This document shows, piece by piece, positions 6,935-61,760 of a DNA stretch of 64,000 nt. The translations under genes and the position numbers were made by a program. The DNA lies in NCBI GenBank assembly GCA_049516875.1, contig JBEKSS010000007.1, forward strand, positions 64,001 to 128,000, read 5' to 3'. Each line of letters starts with the position of its first letter. The first letter of the stretch is position 1. Origin of the DNA: Candidatus Bathyarchaeia archaeon (GTDB lineage Archaea; Thermoproteota; Bathyarchaeia; Bathyarchaeales; Bathycorpusculaceae). A model generated the notes under the pieces. That model ran no database searches and was not told where the DNA came from. It was given only the letters and a program-made list of their open reading frames with translations.

Positions 6935-7147
6935 AGTGGCACACCGTCAGAAGCATCGAATTGTCTCTTCTGCTTAAATTATCTTTCCACGTTTTTCGCG
7001 CGCGCAGCTAAACACTGGTTTGAGGGAAAAGCCGTCAATAACAAGGCAGACTGTTCTAAAGATGGGCAAGCGAGTCTTTTGAACGGATTATCGATTTGGC
7101 TAAAAGCCTTCTGAAGGAAAGCGAACATGGTCGTTGAAAGGGTCAAT

Positions 7148-7352
7148 GTTGAGTTTCGAGACCTTGTGTTTGAGTGCTCAATCCGTGATTTCTTTGAGTG
7201 TCAAAACATTGTTGAACAATGTTGGTTCCGTGCTTTTTTTACTCAATTCCGCGAGGCTTTTGAGTGTCAAAACCCTGCAATGAGCACGAAAGGCAAGAGT
7301 GCATCGGACCAAGGCTCCTATGCCACCGAGGTTAAGAGCTGAGTTTTCAAAA
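7148..7352. repeat. Cluster of TTGAGT(G/T)(C)TCAA palindromic boxes plus a 9-bp inverted repeat
   Basis: tttgagtgctcaa 7169, tttgagtgtcaaaac 7193 and 7259, ctgagttttcaaaa 7339; aacattgtt-g-aacaatgtt 7205-7223. Confidence 0.5.
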
Positions 7353-7483
7353 AGAAGCCCCATTCTAGTCAGCGAGTCTGCAGTGTAGAGTTGTTGCAAA
7401 AAAAGAGCAGGCTATCTCTCCCTCCACGTGTGGGCTATGCGGTGGGTACATTGAAAAATCCCGAGTAGAGGGAATTGAAAGAG

Positions 7484-7650
7484 TCAGCGTATCCGCCAAT
7501 ATCCATTGGCCTGTTGCGGCGTCAAATCTAAATCAACCTCAATTCTGTAATCAAACTTGTCGATTCTTCGTGTTCTTGTCTTGGACGCTGCAATCAGCCC
7601 TTTTCTTTCCCATTCATTGAGCCTTATTCAAAGCACGCAGTGCACCTTGA
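7484..7650 (-). pseudogene. Remnant of a small hypothetical gene
   Basis: Protein-like frame LNEWERKGLIAASKTRTRRIDKFDYRIEVDLDLTPQQA preceded by an in-frame TGA and no start codon. Confidence 0.35.
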
Positions 7651-7697
7651 AGGCCAAGCGCGCGCTTGGGCTCAATGAAAGAATCAAAATGGAGGTT

Positions 7698-8132
7698 CTA
7701 GGACAATGTGCTTGGTGCTTGTTGGGTCCACGATAGGGGTATACCGATTGATGGTATCACTTTGAAATAGTATATCGTACCGACCTGCCACGAGTAGTTC
7801 AATGTTATTCTCTGAACAGTGCCTGCTGGGAGCGACACTGGAGTGATTGTCTGGTTGTCCATCGTTGAAGATGATGTTCCAACATAGACCTGAATTATCG
7901 TGGTGTCCGAAGTGCCTGTATCTTGTATGTCAATGTCTATCTTGGTTCCGTTTCCGTAGAATCTCACGTTTGCCGGGTAAAGAACCACGCCTGCTTGTCC
8001 TGTTGTATGGGCCATATAAGTCATTACCCACGCGTACGTCACCACTATCGCGGCCACGGCTATGACAACTAGCAGCAGCGTAGCGAGTATCGGCGAAATG
8101 GCTTTTCTGGATCTTAACGAATTACAAGCCAA
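7698..8132 (-). CDS. Archaeal type IV pilin (class III signal peptide)
   Basis: RSRKA|ISPILATLLLVVIAVAA; probable TTG start at 8132 after a GGTGA RBS (the ORF track extends to 8204). Confidence 0.9.
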   Translation of the reverse strand: MACNSLRSRKAISPILATLLLVVIAVAAIVVTYAWVMTYMAHTTGQAGVVLYPANVRFYGNGTKIDIDIQDTGTSDTTIIQVYVGTSSSTMDNQTITPVSLPAGTVQRITLNYSWQVGTIYYFKVIPSIGIPLSWTQQAPSTLS

Positions 8133-58146: not shown

Positions 58147-58823
58147 TTGTCGACCAACCTAAGATCTTTCACTCTGAACACGCCGGAGTAGCCTCTATAT
58201 GAGACATCATGGTCAAGAATTTCTATTTTCTTCTTGAAAAAAGGTGCATCAGTTACAGTCGTCTCTATTTCCCCACCTTCTCCGGCAGGGCTCAAACCAT
58301 ATTCTTCCTTCAGTCTCTCGAGCTTATGAATCATGTCATTATCTAAGTTTCTTCCCAGGAATTTTTCATCCAAGGGAAAAGCAAAGACGCCTGATATTAT
58401 GACTTCGTATTTGTTTTTGACAACCTCGTTCAGGAGCTCTATTTCATCCTTTAGCCATAAGGGGTTGAAACACCATAAACCGAGTTGTTTGCAGATTCTC
58501 TGTACTCGAGTTGACTGGTAAATTGATTTCACGGCACCTGTCACGATTCCCTCCAAATCGAAATCAGCTTTAGCCGTGCCGAGAGCTTTTTTCAGGTCTT
58601 CAAGTTCCTTCTCCTTCTTGCCCTCCGTCTTTCTTTGAACAAGCGGCAATCCAATGGCTTCAGCTTGTTTACCAGTCATTTCTATGTTGGGAACATGAAA
58701 CATGTAGCTTTCCTGGCTTTCAGAGATCAAACTGATCAGGCAAACGACATCATGAAAACTCTTCGATTTGTGTAACGCCAAACACGAATCTTTTCCCCCT
58801 GAGAACAGTACTCCAACTCTCAT
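58143..58823 (-). CDS. dph6: Diphthine--ammonia ligase (diphthamide synthetase)
   Basis: LFSGGKDS, SYMFH, YQSTR, NPLW, AGEGGEIET. Confidence 0.92.
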   Translation of the reverse strand: MRVGVLFSGGKDSCLALHKSKSFHDVVCLISLISESQESYMFHVPNIEMTGKQAEAIGLPLVQRKTEGKKEKELEDLKKALGTAKADFDLEGIVTGAVKSIYQSTRVQRICKQLGLWCFNPLWLKDEIELLNEVVKNKYEVIISGVFAFPLDEKFLGRNLDNDMIHKLERLKEEYGLSPAGEGGEIETTVTDAPFFKKKIEILDHDVSYRGYSGVFRVKDLRLVDK

Positions 58824-58985
58824 GAAAGGGACTAGAGCATCCTATTTTATAAAGACATTTTCGCGTGTCCAAGACTCATCGTAACCACGAAACCTGCCAT
58901 GGGTCGCATTGCGTTGTTGCACGAGTATGTGAAGAATGAGAAAAAGCATCGGAGACCTAAAGCGCGTGTTCCATCGCGTCTGTGT

Positions 58986-59357
58986 TCATATGGCAATCCT
59001 TTTTCTCTTTTCAGTCAACTTCGTTATCTTGTCTTCAAAATGGCGGGTTAGGAAAGTCACAATTGTCGTTGTCAAGACTCCGGCGAGGAATACATTGACG
59101 TTTGTTATGAAGAAACCTGTGGCGGCGACTAACGCTCCCAAACCTGCTATGATCCAGCACATTCTATTATGCGATTTTGCTTCCCCTATTCTGTGGTCTA
59201 AATGTCTGAGCACTTTGTCTTCGTCATCTCGGCTGAGAGTATCAAGAAATTGGTGTTCGCACTGAGTTGAACACAAGGCAATGTTCAACGTTTTGTCCTT
59301 GAACAACAACTTTGAAGTCACCTTGCCGCACATAGAACAAGATCTTTCTTCTTTCAT
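58986..59357 (-). CDS. Zn-finger (TRASH/HIT-like) two-TM membrane protein
   Basis: CSMC...CSTQC, then two hydrophobic helices. Confidence 0.65.
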   Translation of the reverse strand: MKEERSCSMCGKVTSKLLFKDKTLNIALCSTQCEHQFLDTLSRDDEDKVLRHLDHRIGEAKSHNRMCWIIAGLGALVAATGFFITNVNVFLAGVLTTTIVTFLTRHFEDKITKLTEKRKRIAI

Positions 59358-59369
59358 TGCACTGACCGA

Positions 59370-61760
59370 CTATCTCGTTCTGGTTTCATGCATCAGATAA
59401 GCGCGCGCACTCAGATAATTGAATTCGGAAATGTTTTTCTGCGCATTCAGTAAGGCTTGGGAAAACTCTGCCGTCGGTTCTTCCTCTTGCGTGAACGTGT
59501 TACCTGAGAGTTCATAGTGTATCCCGTTAGTGAGCGAGGCTATTATTTTCGTGGTGAAGGAGCTGGAAATCGTTTGCAGCTTAGTATAAGTTGGAATAGT
59601 ATCTGTCTGCAACTTTGCAGAGATTGGAACCGTGTTTACAACCACCGTGTACACATTTTCTTTCCTTATGAGTTGAGAAACTGAAACGACGTCTTTGATA
59701 GCTTCGTCCTCATACTTGTAGAGGGACATGTTCAGGGTGTTGAATTCGCGGATTTCGCCTGTTTGCAAGTCTCGCCTCAGAGGGACATTTGCGTCTCCGT
59801 CGGTCACAATGACCATCACAGGTATCGTGGAGGGGTCTCTACGCTTAGATTCTCTCAGGACCTCAAGTGCCTTTTGCATCCCTGCGGCTAAAGGTGTGAA
59901 ACCGCTTATCCGCAATCTCAGAAGCTTGTTAGCGACCATCTTCACATTTGCCGTGGGATGTTGAACCACGACAGCTCCCGTCTCTTTGAATGCCACTATT
60001 CCAACCTTATCCCTGTAGCGGTAAGCGTCGCTGTGCAGCTTCAGCATCACTTCTTTTATGCTGTCAATGCTGCTAAGCATTGATTCGCTCAAGTCTAGAA
60101 CAAAGGCCATTGTCATCGGAGCACGGTAGATCCTCACCTTTTCCCTAACGTCTTCCGGGCGTATCGAAAGAGACACACCCGTTGGCTTGTCCCTGAACTT
60201 TTGGATTCTTGCTGCAGTCCTAATTGTTGCTGGAAAATGAATGTCAGAAGGCTTGCCTTCCGGAATCTTCCATCCTCGAGCCCGCCCTCTGTGAGCGCAT
60301 GCTACGGCTTCGGCTCTTTTTCCGACGCTATTCGTAGGGTGTTTCAACTCTTTCCTCACTTTAAACAAGAATCCGAAGTGCAGGAGTCTACCTTCGCGAA
60401 TCCTGTCAATGAACGCTGCACCTCTAGTCACCTTTGGACGAGACCACTTGTTTTTTTCAGTCAGAGTGGCACTGCCGCGTTTCTCAGGTTCTGACTCAAA
60501 TAAGAAACGAGGGGTGCTGCCGTCGTTAATCGTTAACTTCAGATTGTCCGAACCGGAATCTCCTAACCTGCCTTTGCTTGCTTCTTCCCTTGTGACAGGG
60601 CCTTTCTTGCCTCTTCCGAAGGGAAGAAGGGTTCTCCTTTTCTCCTCTTGCGATGGTTGCTTTTCCTTGTTTTCCTTTTCTCTCACCTTTTCCACCTTGG
60701 TGCTCTCATCGCCTTGGTGAGATTTTGCTTCCTCGAGCTTGGCGAGTAACGCTTCCTTGATTTCTTTCGGCGTGGCCGGCTCTAGAAAACCGCCTTCTCT
60801 AGTTCTGTGGCTCAGAGCAAGCTCGGCGGCTGTGAGAATGTCCTTCGATGTTACTTCCATTCTGTTTTCGAAAGCTGCCAGTGTTCTTGCGGTCTTGGCT
60901 ATCACGATGTCTGGGCGCATTCCGTCGACCTTTAGTTCTAGACACAATTCGGAAATTATCTTGATGAATCCATCGCTGATCTTGACGTTTGCAAGAATCT
61001 TTTTGGCTTCATCTATCTTCTGTTTGAGCTCTTCCTGCTTGGCGCCATATTTCTTCACGAAGTCTTCCGGATCGGCTTCGAACTCCATGTTTCTCTTCAC
61101 TACTTCAGCCCTTTCATTCGTATCCGAGATTCTGCGGACCTCAACAGACAGCGGTAGCCTGTCCAAAAGTTGGGGTCTAATCTGGCCTTCTTCCGGGTTC
61201 ATCGTCCCAATGAAGATGAACCGTGAAGGATGCTTGACAGATATGCCTTCACGTTCTACAACGTTCCAGCCTGTAGCGGCAGCATCTAGCAGATCGTCTG
61301 CTATGTGGTCTGGAAGCAGATTGATTTCGTCCACATAGAGTATGTTCTGATTCGCCTCTGCCAAGATGCCTGGTTCGAGAGCTTCAACACCCATTTTGAT
61401 GGCCTTTTCCACATTGAGGCTTCCTACAACCCTGTCCTCAGTTGCTCCGAGAGGAAGCTCAACGACTCTCATTCTCTTCTTTTCAAACTGAAGTTTCACA
61501 TTCTTGATGTAGAGGCTTCTACACCCATCACACATGTTTGAAGGATCATCCGGGTTGCAGTTGAATGGGCAATCCTTGGACACCTTCACGTTTGATGCAA
61601 TTTGAGCCAACGCTCTGACGGCCGTCGTCTTCCCAGACCCTTTTGCCCCCCTAACCAGCAAGCCGCCAATCCTGGGGTTGATGGCATTCAGAATCAAAGC
61701 CAGCCTTAAATCATCTAAGGAGACAATCGCAGAGAAAGGATAAGTCAATGACTCCTGCAT
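59370..61760 (-). CDS. Magnesium chelatase ChlI/ChlD-like AAA+ ATPase fused to a vWA domain
   Basis: [59 protein letters not shown]. Confidence 0.9.

What the first reader, a model, noticed from the sequence alone, without database searches (positions are those of the whole stretch)
6997..59408. Iterated GCGCGCGC palindromes concentrated in non-coding DNA and at gene-decay/rearrangement junctions (HIP1-like signature)
Seen: alternating CG runs of >=8 nt at 6997, 7658 (inside the 16-bp palindrome ccaagcgcgcgcttgg), 26336, 26682, 28340, 31373, 32841, 35937, 51448 and 59401. There are 6-7-mers at 26718, 32425, 32741, 36544, 36702, 44301, 47096 and 57451, and only two deep inside genes (1000, 3793). 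By manual count, 9 of the 10 long runs are outside real CDSs, although non-coding DNA is a minority of the window; a rough base-composition estimate gives about one such run per 64 kb. Several sit at lesions. The duplicated gene end reads cgcagact in the intact copy (31301) but cgcgcgcgct in the decayed copy (32841). The GT2 fragment begins at 44301, and the remnant at 7484-7650 begins next to 7658. Established: cyanobacterial HIP1 (GCGATCGC) is an over-represented palindrome linked to methylation and recombination, and alternating CG favours Z-DNA. Inference: a mutational or recombinational process, or a chromatin/DNA-binding protein, creates or uses GCGCGC sites in this archaeon.
Basis: partly seen in the sequence, partly recalled or inferred. 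Interest (0 to 1): 0.75.

Follow-up and report, generated by a model that had tools for sequence, protein, structure and literature searches.

The report
Jumping-gene scars make GCGCGCGC abundant
The eight-letter palindrome GCGCGCGC really is about twenty times too common in this peat archaeon, and it is most likely the small scar left wherever one family of jumping genes, whose two ends both read GCGCGC, has come and gone.

Summary
Observation confirmed. GCGCGCGC occurs 10 times in the window against 0.5 expected. It occurs 447 times in the 2.43-Mb genome against 24-31 expected and is the most over-represented octamer. 380 of the 447 lie in the roughly 20% of DNA that is non-coding. The excess is confined to one Bathyarchaeia genus.

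It is not HIP1-like:
- sites are not conserved between species;
- density is flat across all kinds of intergenic DNA;
- no C5 methyltransferase was found.

The same genus, and essentially only that genus, carries an IS5/IS1182-like insertion sequence and about 180-nt MITEs. Their inverted-repeat tips are GCGCGC and they are flanked by TA. Joining four letters from each tip gives TA-GCGCGCGC-TA, which matches the flank bias of the solo motif.

Direct support:
- metagenome contigs of sister strains lack both MITEs of the window and carry a solo motif at those places;
- one MITE in a sister species corresponds to a solo motif in this genome;
- MITE boundaries face motif-free DNA in relatives.

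Best reading: excision or deletion scars of a mobile element (confidence about 0.75). The chemistry is unknown.

The scan reached a similar reading before on another Bathyarchaeia genome (e1-3085161).

The parts
6997..7005 (.). solo run CGCGCGCGC; left boundary of a 669-nt lineage-specific insertion
   Evidence: Homology to all 4 genus-mates ends at 6987-6993.
7658..7665 (.). solo GCGCGCGC inside a 16-nt palindrome; right boundary of the same insertion
   Evidence: Homology to G004 resumes at 7664, with only 6 nt between the two blocks in G004.
26336..26343 (.). solo GCGCGCGC in variable non-coding DNA
   Evidence: No homology to the relatives between about 24850 and 28685.
26682..26689 (.). 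solo GCGCGCGC followed by TA, at the junction of a roughly 100-nt strain-level indel
   Evidence: Run X5 joins 26588 to 26691 with 16 other letters between.
26718..26723 (.). 6-letter run GCGCGC preceded by TA
28340..28348 (.). solo GCGCGCGCG preceded by TA
   Evidence: Present in L067, L069 and L081 and in an X4 contig.
31373..31381 (.). solo GCGCGCGCG exactly where homology to G004 ends; left edge of a 1.4-kb insertion
31247..31373 (+). intact copy of a roughly 125-nt stretch that is duplicated at 32787-32911 around the insertion
32425..32746 (.). 322-nt MITE-like element with GCGCGC tips, a degenerate left inverted repeat and TA on its left
   Evidence: Sequence. Contigs of runs X13 and X15 skip it and read a solo run instead; X15 has one C-to-T change.
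32841..32849 (.). solo CGCGCGCGC replacing 7 letters in the decayed duplicate
   Evidence: The intact copy and the G004 outgroup lack it.
35937..35945 (.). solo CGCGCGCGC, 87 nt inside the left edge of a 9.3-kb island (35851-45172) absent from G001, G003 and G004
36545..36707 (.). 163-nt MITE with GCGCGC tips and TA on its right
   Evidence: An X15 contig (1026 nt, depth 32.8) joins 36546 to 36702, giving C-GCGCGCGC-TA.
51448..51455 (.). solo GCGCGCGC preceded by TA, in a gap of homology (51339-52042 against G004)
59401..59408 (.). solo GCGCGCGC in the last codons of a predicted gene, in DNA without a G004 counterpart (58913-62202)
44301..44306 (.). 6-letter run, non-coding
   Evidence: Origin not examined.
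47096..47102 (.). 7-letter run, non-coding
   Evidence: Origin not examined.

Best explanation
GCGCGCGC is a scar of a mobile element. It is not a functional or methylation-linked motif.

The genus carries an insertion sequence of about 1.1 kb. It has one DUF772 + DDE_Tnp_1 transposase of the IS5/IS1182 type. The genus also carries non-autonomous derivatives of it, MITEs of 160-300 nt. Both kinds of element have inverted-repeat tips that read GCGCGC, and both insert at TA and duplicate it.

When an element is lost, about four letters of each tip stay behind between the two TA copies, giving TA-GCGC|GCGC-TA. Products of 6 to 10 letters also occur. Loss could happen by transposase cutting followed by rejoining, or by host-mediated 'nearly precise' deletion.

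Scars are tolerated only outside genes. There they accumulate roughly in proportion to the amount of non-coding DNA, and they then decay by point mutation.

Shown: the element family, its tips and its TA flanks; its restriction to the same genus as the motif; MITE-versus-solo-motif differences between strains and between species; motif-free sites in relatives where elements have inserted; origin of solo motifs as small insertions or patches; and lack of conservation.

Inferred: the direction of change (element first, scar second), the 4+4 geometry, and which enzyme does the rejoining.
For: 1. The unit is exact. Among maximal alternating runs, the 8-letter G..C class numbers 212, each 7-letter class about 100, and the 8-letter C..G class 28; almost nothing exceeds 10 letters. 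G002 shows the same pattern.

2. Flanks are biased. A precedes the motif in 50% of sites and T follows in 45%, with no conservation further out. Solo 8-mers have TA on 126 of 376 sides, against a 5.3% background.

3. An element family has matching tips. There are 16 complete MITEs with inverted repeats of about 45 nt and GCGCGC tips; TA lies on 24 of their 32 sides. A 1102-nt IS with the same tips lies at G000:C7:36805-37906 and has an intact 307-333-aa DUF772 + DDE_Tnp_1 reading frame.

4. Motif and element occur in the same genomes.
- The motif numbers 168-646 in all 5 genomes of the genus and 0-30 in 24 of the 26 others.
- The tip pattern gives 4-57 hits in the same 5 genomes, a single hit in 1 of the 26 others, and 0 control hits.
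- The transposase is at 86% identity or more in G001, G003 and G004, and at 43-45% in G002, whose copies belong to the second subfamily. It reaches only 26-39% identity in 4 of the 26 other genomes.

5. Strains differ by MITE versus solo motif. An X15 contig lacks the MITE at 36545-36707 and reads C-GCGCGCGC-TA. X13 and X15 contigs lack the element at 32425-32746 and read a solo 9-letter run. The X13 strain, which differs from the window by 2.4% over that contig, keeps the 36545 MITE; the X15 strain, which differs by 1.2%, lacks it. This hints at loss rather than gain.

6. One MITE corresponds to a solo motif across species. A G004 MITE and a G000 TA-GCGCGCGC-TA sit at the same left boundary.

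7. Elements insert into motif-free DNA. At least 8 element boundaries face DNA without any GC run in a relative. One of these flanks is 97.8% identical and another 90.8%.

8. Solo motifs arise as units. Of 27 motif sites inside G000-G002 alignments, 4 are shared, 11 align to gaps and 12 align to unrelated letters. A +6 insertion is specific to one strain lineage.

9. The sites turn over neutrally.
- Only 14 of 333 non-coding loci lie in aligned DNA, against 77.3 +/- 7.1 expected.
- One-mismatch variants are enriched 2.5- to 14-fold, transitions most.
- Density is flat by type and length of intergenic region.
Against: - TA is much rarer beside solo motifs (33.5% of sides; both sides in 22 of 188) than beside element tips (about 83%). 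Simple decay would predict about 60% by my arithmetic.
- Several gains do not have the predicted +10 (TA plus 8) form. They are +6, +11 or +15, same-length patches, or -6 in genes.
- Three patterns are not explained by simple excision: full 8-mers at both ends of the 669-nt insertion (6997 and 7658); 8-mers directly beside direct repeats of 10-45 nt that flank larger insertions; and 4 of 84 insertion junctions with a motif within 5 nt (about 0.65 expected by my arithmetic).
- The direction of the strain differences was not established on a tree.
- None of the 33 elements tested had both flanks collinear in another species, so no complete empty-versus-filled-versus-scar series exists.
- G003 has only 4 tip hits but 253 motifs.
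- I know of no report that IS5/IS1182-type elements leave such scars (recalled, not from a call).
Confidence: 0.75

Rival explanations
1. The 8-mer exists first, for some other reason, and is the specific insertion target of the IS/MITE. The element would duplicate the central GCGC, so that elements only appear to have GCGCGC tips.
For: The MITE-versus-solo-motif differences fit this geometry equally well: 6 + 6 = 8 + 4. All tips have the same length. Related IS5-type elements are known to duplicate 4 bp of a short palindromic target (recalled).
Against: At least 8 element boundaries face orthologous DNA with no GC run, including flanks 97.8% and 90.8% identical. TA flanks are about 83% at tips against 33.5% at solo motifs, so elements are not a random sample of motif sites. 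This reading also leaves the 86-fold non-coding excess and the unit-wise gains unexplained.
Confidence: 0.08
2. HIP1-like selected motif: a site kept by selection or by biased repair linked to a methyltransferase, or a binding site for a chromatin or nucleoid protein, or a Z-DNA former.
For: It is the top over-represented octamer, it is palindromic, and it is specific to a genus. It is depleted within 50 nt of gene starts and mildly enriched 10-70 nt after stops.
Against: - 85% of copies are in non-coding DNA.
- Density is flat by type and length of intergenic region, so there is not one site per gene.
- Sites are 5.5-fold depleted in conserved non-coding DNA, and only 4 of 27 aligned sites are shared.
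- Syntenic regions of the relatives hold 1-3 motifs, at other places.
- The excess of one-mismatch variants roughly equals the number of perfect copies, as neutral decay predicts (my arithmetic).
- No PF00145 domain was found in a 97%-complete genome, although the control search hit 9 of 14 genomes.
- N4 and N6 methyltransferases were not searched.
Confidence: 0.07
3. Simple-sequence instability: (CG)n arises and grows by replication slippage, and is purged from genes.
For: One strain difference is a clean 6-letter GC-repeat indel. GCGC and CGCG are 2.1-2.5 times denser in non-coding DNA.
Against: The length distribution peaks at exactly 8 in the G..C phase and collapses above 10; runs of 12 or more number 3 in the genome. 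The other dinucleotide repeats fall off steadily with length, with no such peak. The A/T flank bias and the link to element tips are not expected under slippage.
Confidence: 0.03
4. Assembly or binning artefact.
For: The genome is a metagenome-assembled draft of 20 contigs with 5.4% estimated contamination.
Against: The same sites are present in three other metagenome contigs and in contigs of four public runs from other samples. The motif is spread over all large contigs.
Confidence: 0.01

Closest known systems
Excision footprints of TA-targeting cut-and-paste transposons (Tc1/mariner, Stowaway MITEs) in eukaryotes
   Same: Both have a TA target duplication. Both leave a palindromic scar built from a few terminal letters of both transposon ends between the two TA copies. 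Scar length varies. Allelic differences between element and scar occur.
   Different: The host here is an archaeon. The transposase is DUF772 + DDE_Tnp_1 (IS5/IS1182-like), and no DDE_3 or mariner domain was found. About 4+4 letters are kept, rather than the 2-3 per end that I recall for Tc1/mariner. The scars are so numerous that they form the top octamer of the genome. The comparison with eukaryotic footprints rests on recall.
Nearly precise excision of Tn10 (Ross et al. 1979; Foster et al. 1981)
   Same: A host-mediated deletion between short repeats inside the inverted ends leaves a small palindromic remnant of the element.
   Different: I recall the Tn10 remnant as about 50 bp. Here the remnant is 8 letters, and the register with the most homology (6 letters) is not the commonest. 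I saw both papers only as entries in the bibliography of 10.1101/2023.06.07.543989; their content is recalled.
HIP1 (GCGATCGC) and other highly iterated palindromes of cyanobacteria
   Same: A GC-rich palindromic octamer, far over-represented and specific to a lineage.
   Different: As I recall, HIP1 is spread through genes as well as spacers and is linked to methyltransferases. Here 85% of copies are non-coding, the sites are not conserved, and no C5 methyltransferase was found. Of Elhai 2015 (PMC4390886) I saw only the title and a term search, in which 'transpos', 'intergenic', 'archaea' and 'footprint' gave 0 hits.
REP/BIME extragenic palindromes
   Same: Short palindromes, numerous and confined to intergenic DNA.
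   Different: As I recall, REPs are imperfect palindromes of 20-40 nt with a conserved head, tied to RAYT transposases. Here only 8-12 letters are fixed. RAYT was not searched.
Earlier scan finding e1-3085161 (another Bathyarchaeia genome)
   Same: GC-only palindromes at places where DNA was lost, gained or swapped, read as leftover tips of a jumping gene.
   Different: It concerns a different genome, and I saw only its summary lines. Here the element, its transposase, the genus-wide co-occurrence and the MITE-versus-scar alleles are documented.

Membership tests
MITE (miniature inverted-repeat transposable element) | Terminal inverted repeats | tested here: met
   Inverted repeats of about 45 nt in 16 aligned copies.
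MITE (miniature inverted-repeat transposable element) | Short, non-coding and multi-copy | tested here: met
   16 complete copies of 163-303 nt and 66 termini by a relaxed pattern in G000. 35 strict tip hits.
MITE (miniature inverted-repeat transposable element) | Target-site duplication | tested here: met
   TA on 24 of 32 sides. Further copies in G004 mostly show TA as well.
MITE (miniature inverted-repeat transposable element) | An autonomous element with the same ends | tested here: met
   A 1102-nt IS in G000 and a 1077-nt IS in G002, with the same tips and a transposase gene.
IS5 / IS1182 group of insertion sequences | DDE_Tnp_1 catalytic domain with an N-terminal DUF772 domain | tested here: met
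   PF01609 at 82.9 bits and PF05598 at 46 bits, both over their cut-offs. PF01609 at 54 bits in G000.
IS5 / IS1182 group of insertion sequences | Reaches a curated family model | tested here: not met
   NCBIfam IS1182 scores 80.6 bits against a cut-off of 270; IS5_4 scores 65.5 against 140. It is a divergent relative, not a filed member.
IS5 / IS1182 group of insertion sequences | Catalytic DDE residues intact | not tested
   No alignment to characterised transposases was made.
Transposon excision footprint | Scar sequence equals the joined terminal letters of the element | tested here: met
   The tips are GCGCGC. The solo unit is GCGCGCGC with a sharp length peak.
Transposon excision footprint | Both copies of the target duplication are kept beside the scar | tested here: inconclusive
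   TA on 33.5% of sides and on both sides in 22 of 188, against a 5.3% background. This is enriched but far from universal.
Transposon excision footprint | The same site holds the element in one genome and the scar in another | tested here: met
   Two sites between strains and one between species.
Transposon excision footprint | The scar is derived from the element-bearing state | tested here: inconclusive
   The only evidence is the divergence of two contigs, 2.4% with the MITE against 1.2% without. No tree was built.
HIP1-type highly iterated palindrome | Strongly over-represented palindromic octamer | tested here: met
   447 observed against 24-31 expected; ranked first of all octamers.
HIP1-type highly iterated palindrome | Spread through coding and non-coding DNA alike (a feature I recall, not from a call) | tested here: not met
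   67 coding against 380 non-coding; density ratio 22.
HIP1-type highly iterated palindrome | A cognate DNA methyltransferase | tested here: inconclusive
   No PF00145 domain was found. Other methyltransferase families were not searched.
(CG)n microsatellite | Smooth, open-ended length distribution without phase preference | tested here: not met
   The distribution peaks at 8 in the G..C phase, and 3 runs of 12 or more exist.

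The most novel reading that the evidence does not exclude
In this archaeal genus the broken donor site left by a cut-and-paste element is routinely rejoined. This leaves a fixed palindromic scar, which implies an efficient end-joining activity, either of the host or of the transposase itself. The breaks or scars are also preferred places where foreign or ectopic DNA is captured. That would explain the 8-mers at both ends of inserted segments and beside the long direct repeats of gene-sized insertions. If so, one small IS family would shape much of the accessory genome. Unexplained 'highly iterated palindromes' elsewhere might be the same kind of scar.
Probability: 0.3. 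Interest if true: 0.75.

Novelty: new variant of a known kind. Interest (0 to 1): 0.58.

Why it matters
A striking genome signature, the most over-represented octamer with an 86-fold excess in spacers, gets a concrete and testable cause. Excision scars are textbook in eukaryotes but I found little on them in prokaryotes. A 2024 review of prokaryotic MITEs does not contain the word 'footprint'. My searches found nothing on GCGCGCGC in archaea or on insertion sequences in Bathyarchaeota.

If the reading holds, it has four uses:
- It gives a molecular record of past transposition in an uncultured archaeal lineage.
- It points to a break-rejoining activity in these archaea.
- It warns against reading every iterated palindrome as a methylation or binding site.
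- It suggests a simple screen for other genomes: does the top palindrome equal the joined tips of a resident IS?

Tried and rejected
- Promoter or terminator element. Rejected: density is similar in tandem, convergent and divergent spacers (0.68, 0.77 and 0.59 per kb) and flat with spacer length, and there is no flank conservation.
- Larger repeat or MITE containing the 8-mer. Rejected for solo sites, because flanks are random beyond 2 letters.
- HaeII-like cut, fill-in and religation of AGCGCT. I considered this because it would give AGCGCGCGCT. I dropped it because empty sites in relatives hold no GCGC.
- Hairpin or P-nucleotide origin. The left and right flank letters are independent (89 A..T pairs observed against about 90 expected; my arithmetic), so it does not explain the flanks.
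- Slippage at the second palindrome of the tip. The 14-letter product occurs 0 times.
- Transposase searches in the window's own genome with DDE_3, mariner and DDE_Tnp_4 found nothing. The mariner control hit no genome, so that search says nothing.
- AmoA search to place the organism: no hit, and the control was silent.
- Searching the 851-kb metagenome record behind L069 was not possible, because the record is not held.
- Two-sided orthologous sites for elements: 0 of 21 and 0 of 12 were found, so no full empty/filled/scar series could be built.
- The apparent 'TA + 6-mer + TA against plain TA' case at G000:C1:386215 turned out to be ambiguous on alignment, and I do not use it.
- The first alignment of the G004/G000 pair used the wrong strand; it was redone.
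- Self-comparison of the genome found no high-identity multi-copy repeat of 400 nt or more; the best pair was 85% identical.

Full report
**1. Observation**

GCGCGCGC occurs 10 times in the window against 0.50 expected from dinucleotide-preserving shuffles (largest 3). CGCGCGCG occurs 5 times against 0.48.

The window is G000:C7:64001-128000 of a 2.43-Mb draft with 47% G+C and 20 contigs. Genome-wide there are 447 copies. Markov models of order 1, 2 and 3 expect 24.6, 24.1 and 30.7. GCGCGCGC is the most over-represented of all octamers, and the next ones in the ranking are its own one-letter extensions.

The motif is not a microsatellite. Among maximal alternating runs, the 8-letter G..C class numbers 212. 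The two 7-letter classes number 96 and 108, the 8-letter C..G class 28, and runs of 12 or more number 3. The 9- and 10-letter runs are about as many as chance flanking letters would give (my arithmetic).

Flanks are biased only next to the core. A precedes it in 50% of sites and T follows in 45%. T stands two letters before in 37% and A two letters after in 35%. Nothing is conserved further out.

**2. Where it lies**

I built a crude dicodon gene model: 2342 genes, 79.6% coding. On that model:
- 67 copies are coding and 380 non-coding, a 22-fold difference in density.
- In non-coding DNA 377 copies are observed, against 4.4 expected (order 1) or 16.5 (order 2).
- Seven other palindromes made only of G and C, or nearly so, show no comparable bias toward non-coding DNA.

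Density is 0.68, 0.77 and 0.59 per kb in tandem, convergent and divergent spacers. It is 0.47-0.78 per kb in every spacer length class above 50 nt. The motif therefore falls on non-coding DNA in proportion to its amount, not once per gene. It is depleted within about 50 nt of starts.

One-mismatch variants are enriched 2.5- to 14-fold, transitions more than transversions.

**3. Who has it**

Relatives named in public records are Bathyarchaeia from peat.

The 5 genomes of the genus hold 168-646 copies. Of the 26 other genomes of the family and order, 24 hold 0-30. G018 holds 227, but its reversed control gives 209, so that is probably a composition effect. G024 holds 53.

A second species, G002, shows the same 8-letter peak and A..T flanks in the 1.55 of 2.33 Mb that I fetched: 324 copies against 18.3 expected.

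**4. Not a conserved site**

- Syntenic regions of four genus-mates (76-86% identity) hold only 1-3 motifs per 23-73 kb, and none at the window's places.
- Of 27 motif sites lying well inside G000-G002 alignments (two of them counted on both strands), 4 are shared, 11 align to gaps in the core, and 12 align to unrelated letters.
- Genome-wide, only 14 of 333 non-coding loci lie in aligned DNA, against 77.3 +/- 7.1 for random non-coding positions.
- 28 of the 333 lie within 5 nt of an alignment end, against 9.1 +/- 3.0 (largest 18 of 300 samples).
- No C5 methyltransferase domain was found, while the control search hit 9 of 14 genomes.

**5. At lesions**

- Homology to all four relatives stops at 6987-6993 and, in G004, resumes at 7664. 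The 669 nt between the motifs at 6997 and 7658 are therefore an insertion.
- Homology to G004 ends exactly at 31373, where a 1.4-kb insertion begins. That insertion is flanked by a duplication of about 125 nt. In the second copy, 7 letters are replaced by CGCGCGCGC, while the first copy and G004 lack the motif.
- Strain L069 is 95-98% identical to the window. All 3 non-coding structural differences of 6 nt or more between the two involve the motif.

**6. The element**

A k-mer count showed about 30 copies of a longer word that begins with GCGCGC. Printing these copies showed unique DNA, then TA, then a conserved end beginning GCGCGC. The ends occur in inverted pairs 160-300 nt apart.

Sixteen complete copies align as MITEs, with inverted repeats of about 45 nt and TA on 24 of 32 sides. 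Two lie in the window, at 32425-32746 and 36545-36707.

Autonomous copies exist.
- G002:C1:34476-35552 is 1077 nt and frameshifted. It carries DUF772 and DDE_Tnp_1 domains.
- G000:C7:36805-37906 is 1102 nt with one intact frame of 307-333 aa.

NCBIfam places the protein nearest IS1182 and IS5, but below their cut-offs.

The tip pattern gives 35, 7, 22, 4 and 57 hits in G000 to G004. It gives one hit, at a contig end, in 1 of the 26 other genomes, and no control hits.

The transposase is at 86% identity or more in G001, G003 and G004. In G002 it is at 43-45%, as a second subfamily. Outside the genus it reaches only 26-39% identity, in 4 of 26 genomes.

**7. Link between element and motif**

Four letters from each tip, joined between the two TA copies, give TA-GCGCGCGC-TA. 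This is the consensus of the solo motif. TA stands on 126 of 376 sides of solo 8-mers, against a 5.3% background.

*Strain evidence (Logan contigs of four runs from other samples):*
- An X15 contig (1026 nt, depth 32.8) joins 36546 to 36702, with a 4-letter ambiguity. It therefore lacks the MITE and reads C-GCGCGCGC-TA.
- X13 joins 32426 to 32741, giving TA-GCGCGCGCG.
- X15 has the same junction with one C-to-T change.
- The X13 strain, at 2.4% difference, keeps the 36545 MITE, while the X15 strain, at 1.2%, lacks it. This is a weak hint that absence is derived.

*Species evidence:*
- A G004 MITE and a G000 TA-GCGCGCGC-TA share the same left boundary. The flank is 89.6% identical, but the right flanks are unrelated.
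- At a G002 MITE site, G000 keeps only 13 letters of the inverted repeat.
- At least 8 element boundaries face DNA without any GC run in a relative. Two of these flanks are 97.8% and 90.8% identical. The elements therefore insert at plain, mostly TA, sites and do not need a pre-existing 8-mer.

**8. Reading**

The simplest account is that the solo motif is what remains when an IS or MITE of this family is lost. This explains:
- the exact sequence and its palindromy;
- the length peak with 6-10-letter variants;
- the A/T flanks;
- the restriction to non-coding DNA, since insertions and scars of about 10 letters break genes;
- the flat density;
- the genus limit;
- the unit-wise gains;
- the fast turnover and the halo of decayed copies.

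A steady-state estimate puts scar formation at under 1% of the point-substitution input in spacers, which is not implausible (my arithmetic).

**9. What does not fit**

- TA flanks are much rarer at solo motifs than at tips (33.5% against about 83%).
- Many gains are not +10. They are +6, +11 or +15, same-length patches, or in-frame changes in genes.
- Full 8-mers sit at both ends of the 669-nt insertion.
- Full 8-mers also sit directly beside direct repeats of 10-45 nt that flank larger insertions. 23 of 63 clean insertions between G000 and G002 have such repeats. 4 of the 84 junctions of the 42 insertions of 300 nt or more have an 8-mer within 5 nt, against about 0.65 expected by my arithmetic.
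- MITE flanks never have collinear orthologs on both sides: 0 of 21 and 0 of 12. In several cases the two flanks map to different contigs of the relative.

So these elements or their breaks are tied to larger rearrangements in a way I cannot explain. The chemistry is open: transposase cut with rejoining, or host deletion of the 'nearly precise excision' kind.

**10. Literature**

- A search for GCGCGCGC with archaea gave 11 papers, of which 9 were listed, none on this subject.
- A 2024 review of prokaryotic MITEs (PMC10969869) has 0 occurrences of 'footprint' or 'scar'; I used a term search only.
- Searches on MITE excision footprints in archaea, on IS5 footprints, and on Bathyarchaeota insertion sequences gave nothing relevant in their listings.
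- In Elhai 2015 on HIPs (PMC4390886), 'transpos', 'intergenic', 'archaea' and 'footprint' gave 0 hits; again a term search only.
- The papers on nearly precise excision were seen only as bibliography entries.
- What I say about Tc1/mariner footprints, HIP1 distribution and IS family traits is recalled.

**11. Earlier scan notes**

e1-3085161 read GC-only palindromes in another Bathyarchaeia genome as leftover tips of a jumping gene at rejoining scars. I found it after reaching my own reading, and it agrees. Two notes on AGGCCT in Nanohaloarchaea pointed me to the Elhai paper.

**12. Limits**

- The gene model is my own and is rough.
- Only two thirds of G002 was compared.
- The public runs were available as contigs, not reads.
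- No phylogeny was built.

Noticed in passing
window about 7100-7330 (- strand); 38 seed matches genome-wide: A second dispersed repeat family. Its core of about 60 nt contains the 12-letter palindrome TTGAGTACTCAA, it often occurs as two units about 148 nt apart, and A/C-rich DNA lies upstream. It explains why GAGTACTC is also enriched in non-coding DNA (49 of 65 copies). One copy lies inside the 669-nt insertion bounded by the two motifs. Rfam gave only a weak CRISPR-DR25 match at 7453-7481 (25.4 bits against a gathering score of 36). Its function is unknown.
   Followed up: partly
window 31247-31373 and 32787-32911; genome-wide list: 23 of 63 clean lineage-specific insertions between G000 and G002 (0.06-15 kb) are flanked by direct repeats of 5-37 nt. 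One repeat extends to about 45 nt when read by eye, and the repeat in the window is about 125 nt. The inserted segments share no sequence with each other. The insertion mechanism is unknown.
   Followed up: partly
window 35851-45172: A 9.3-kb island with three family-4/GT1 glycosyltransferase genes and a 1047-aa protein with no Pfam hit. It is absent from the syntenic regions of G001, G003 and G004. Strain L069 replaces 36014-37545 with other DNA.
   Followed up: partly
G000:C9:108672-111833: Two element termini 3.2 kb apart enclose two ORFs of 331 and 276 aa. This may be a cargo-carrying derivative, or it may be two unrelated ends. The ORFs were not annotated.
   Followed up: no
G004 loci L203, L206, L207; G001 locus L210; G000:C9:64723: The left and right flanks of several MITEs match different places or contigs in relatives, so these elements sit at breaks of synteny.
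   Followed up: partly
G014:C50:41-57: The only tip-pattern hit outside the genus lies at a contig end of another genus. It could be transfer or bin contamination.
   Followed up: no
window 26715-28085 (- strand): A 456-aa ORF with no Pfam hit and a low coding score, in a stretch with no counterpart in the genus-mates and bounded by motifs at 26682 and 28340.
   Followed up: no
window 8233-25004: A conserved cluster for a type IV pilus-like or secretion ATPase (T2SSE) and membrane protein (T2SSF), together with large surface proteins carrying DUF2341, PKD, Big_1 and beta-helix domains.
   Followed up: no
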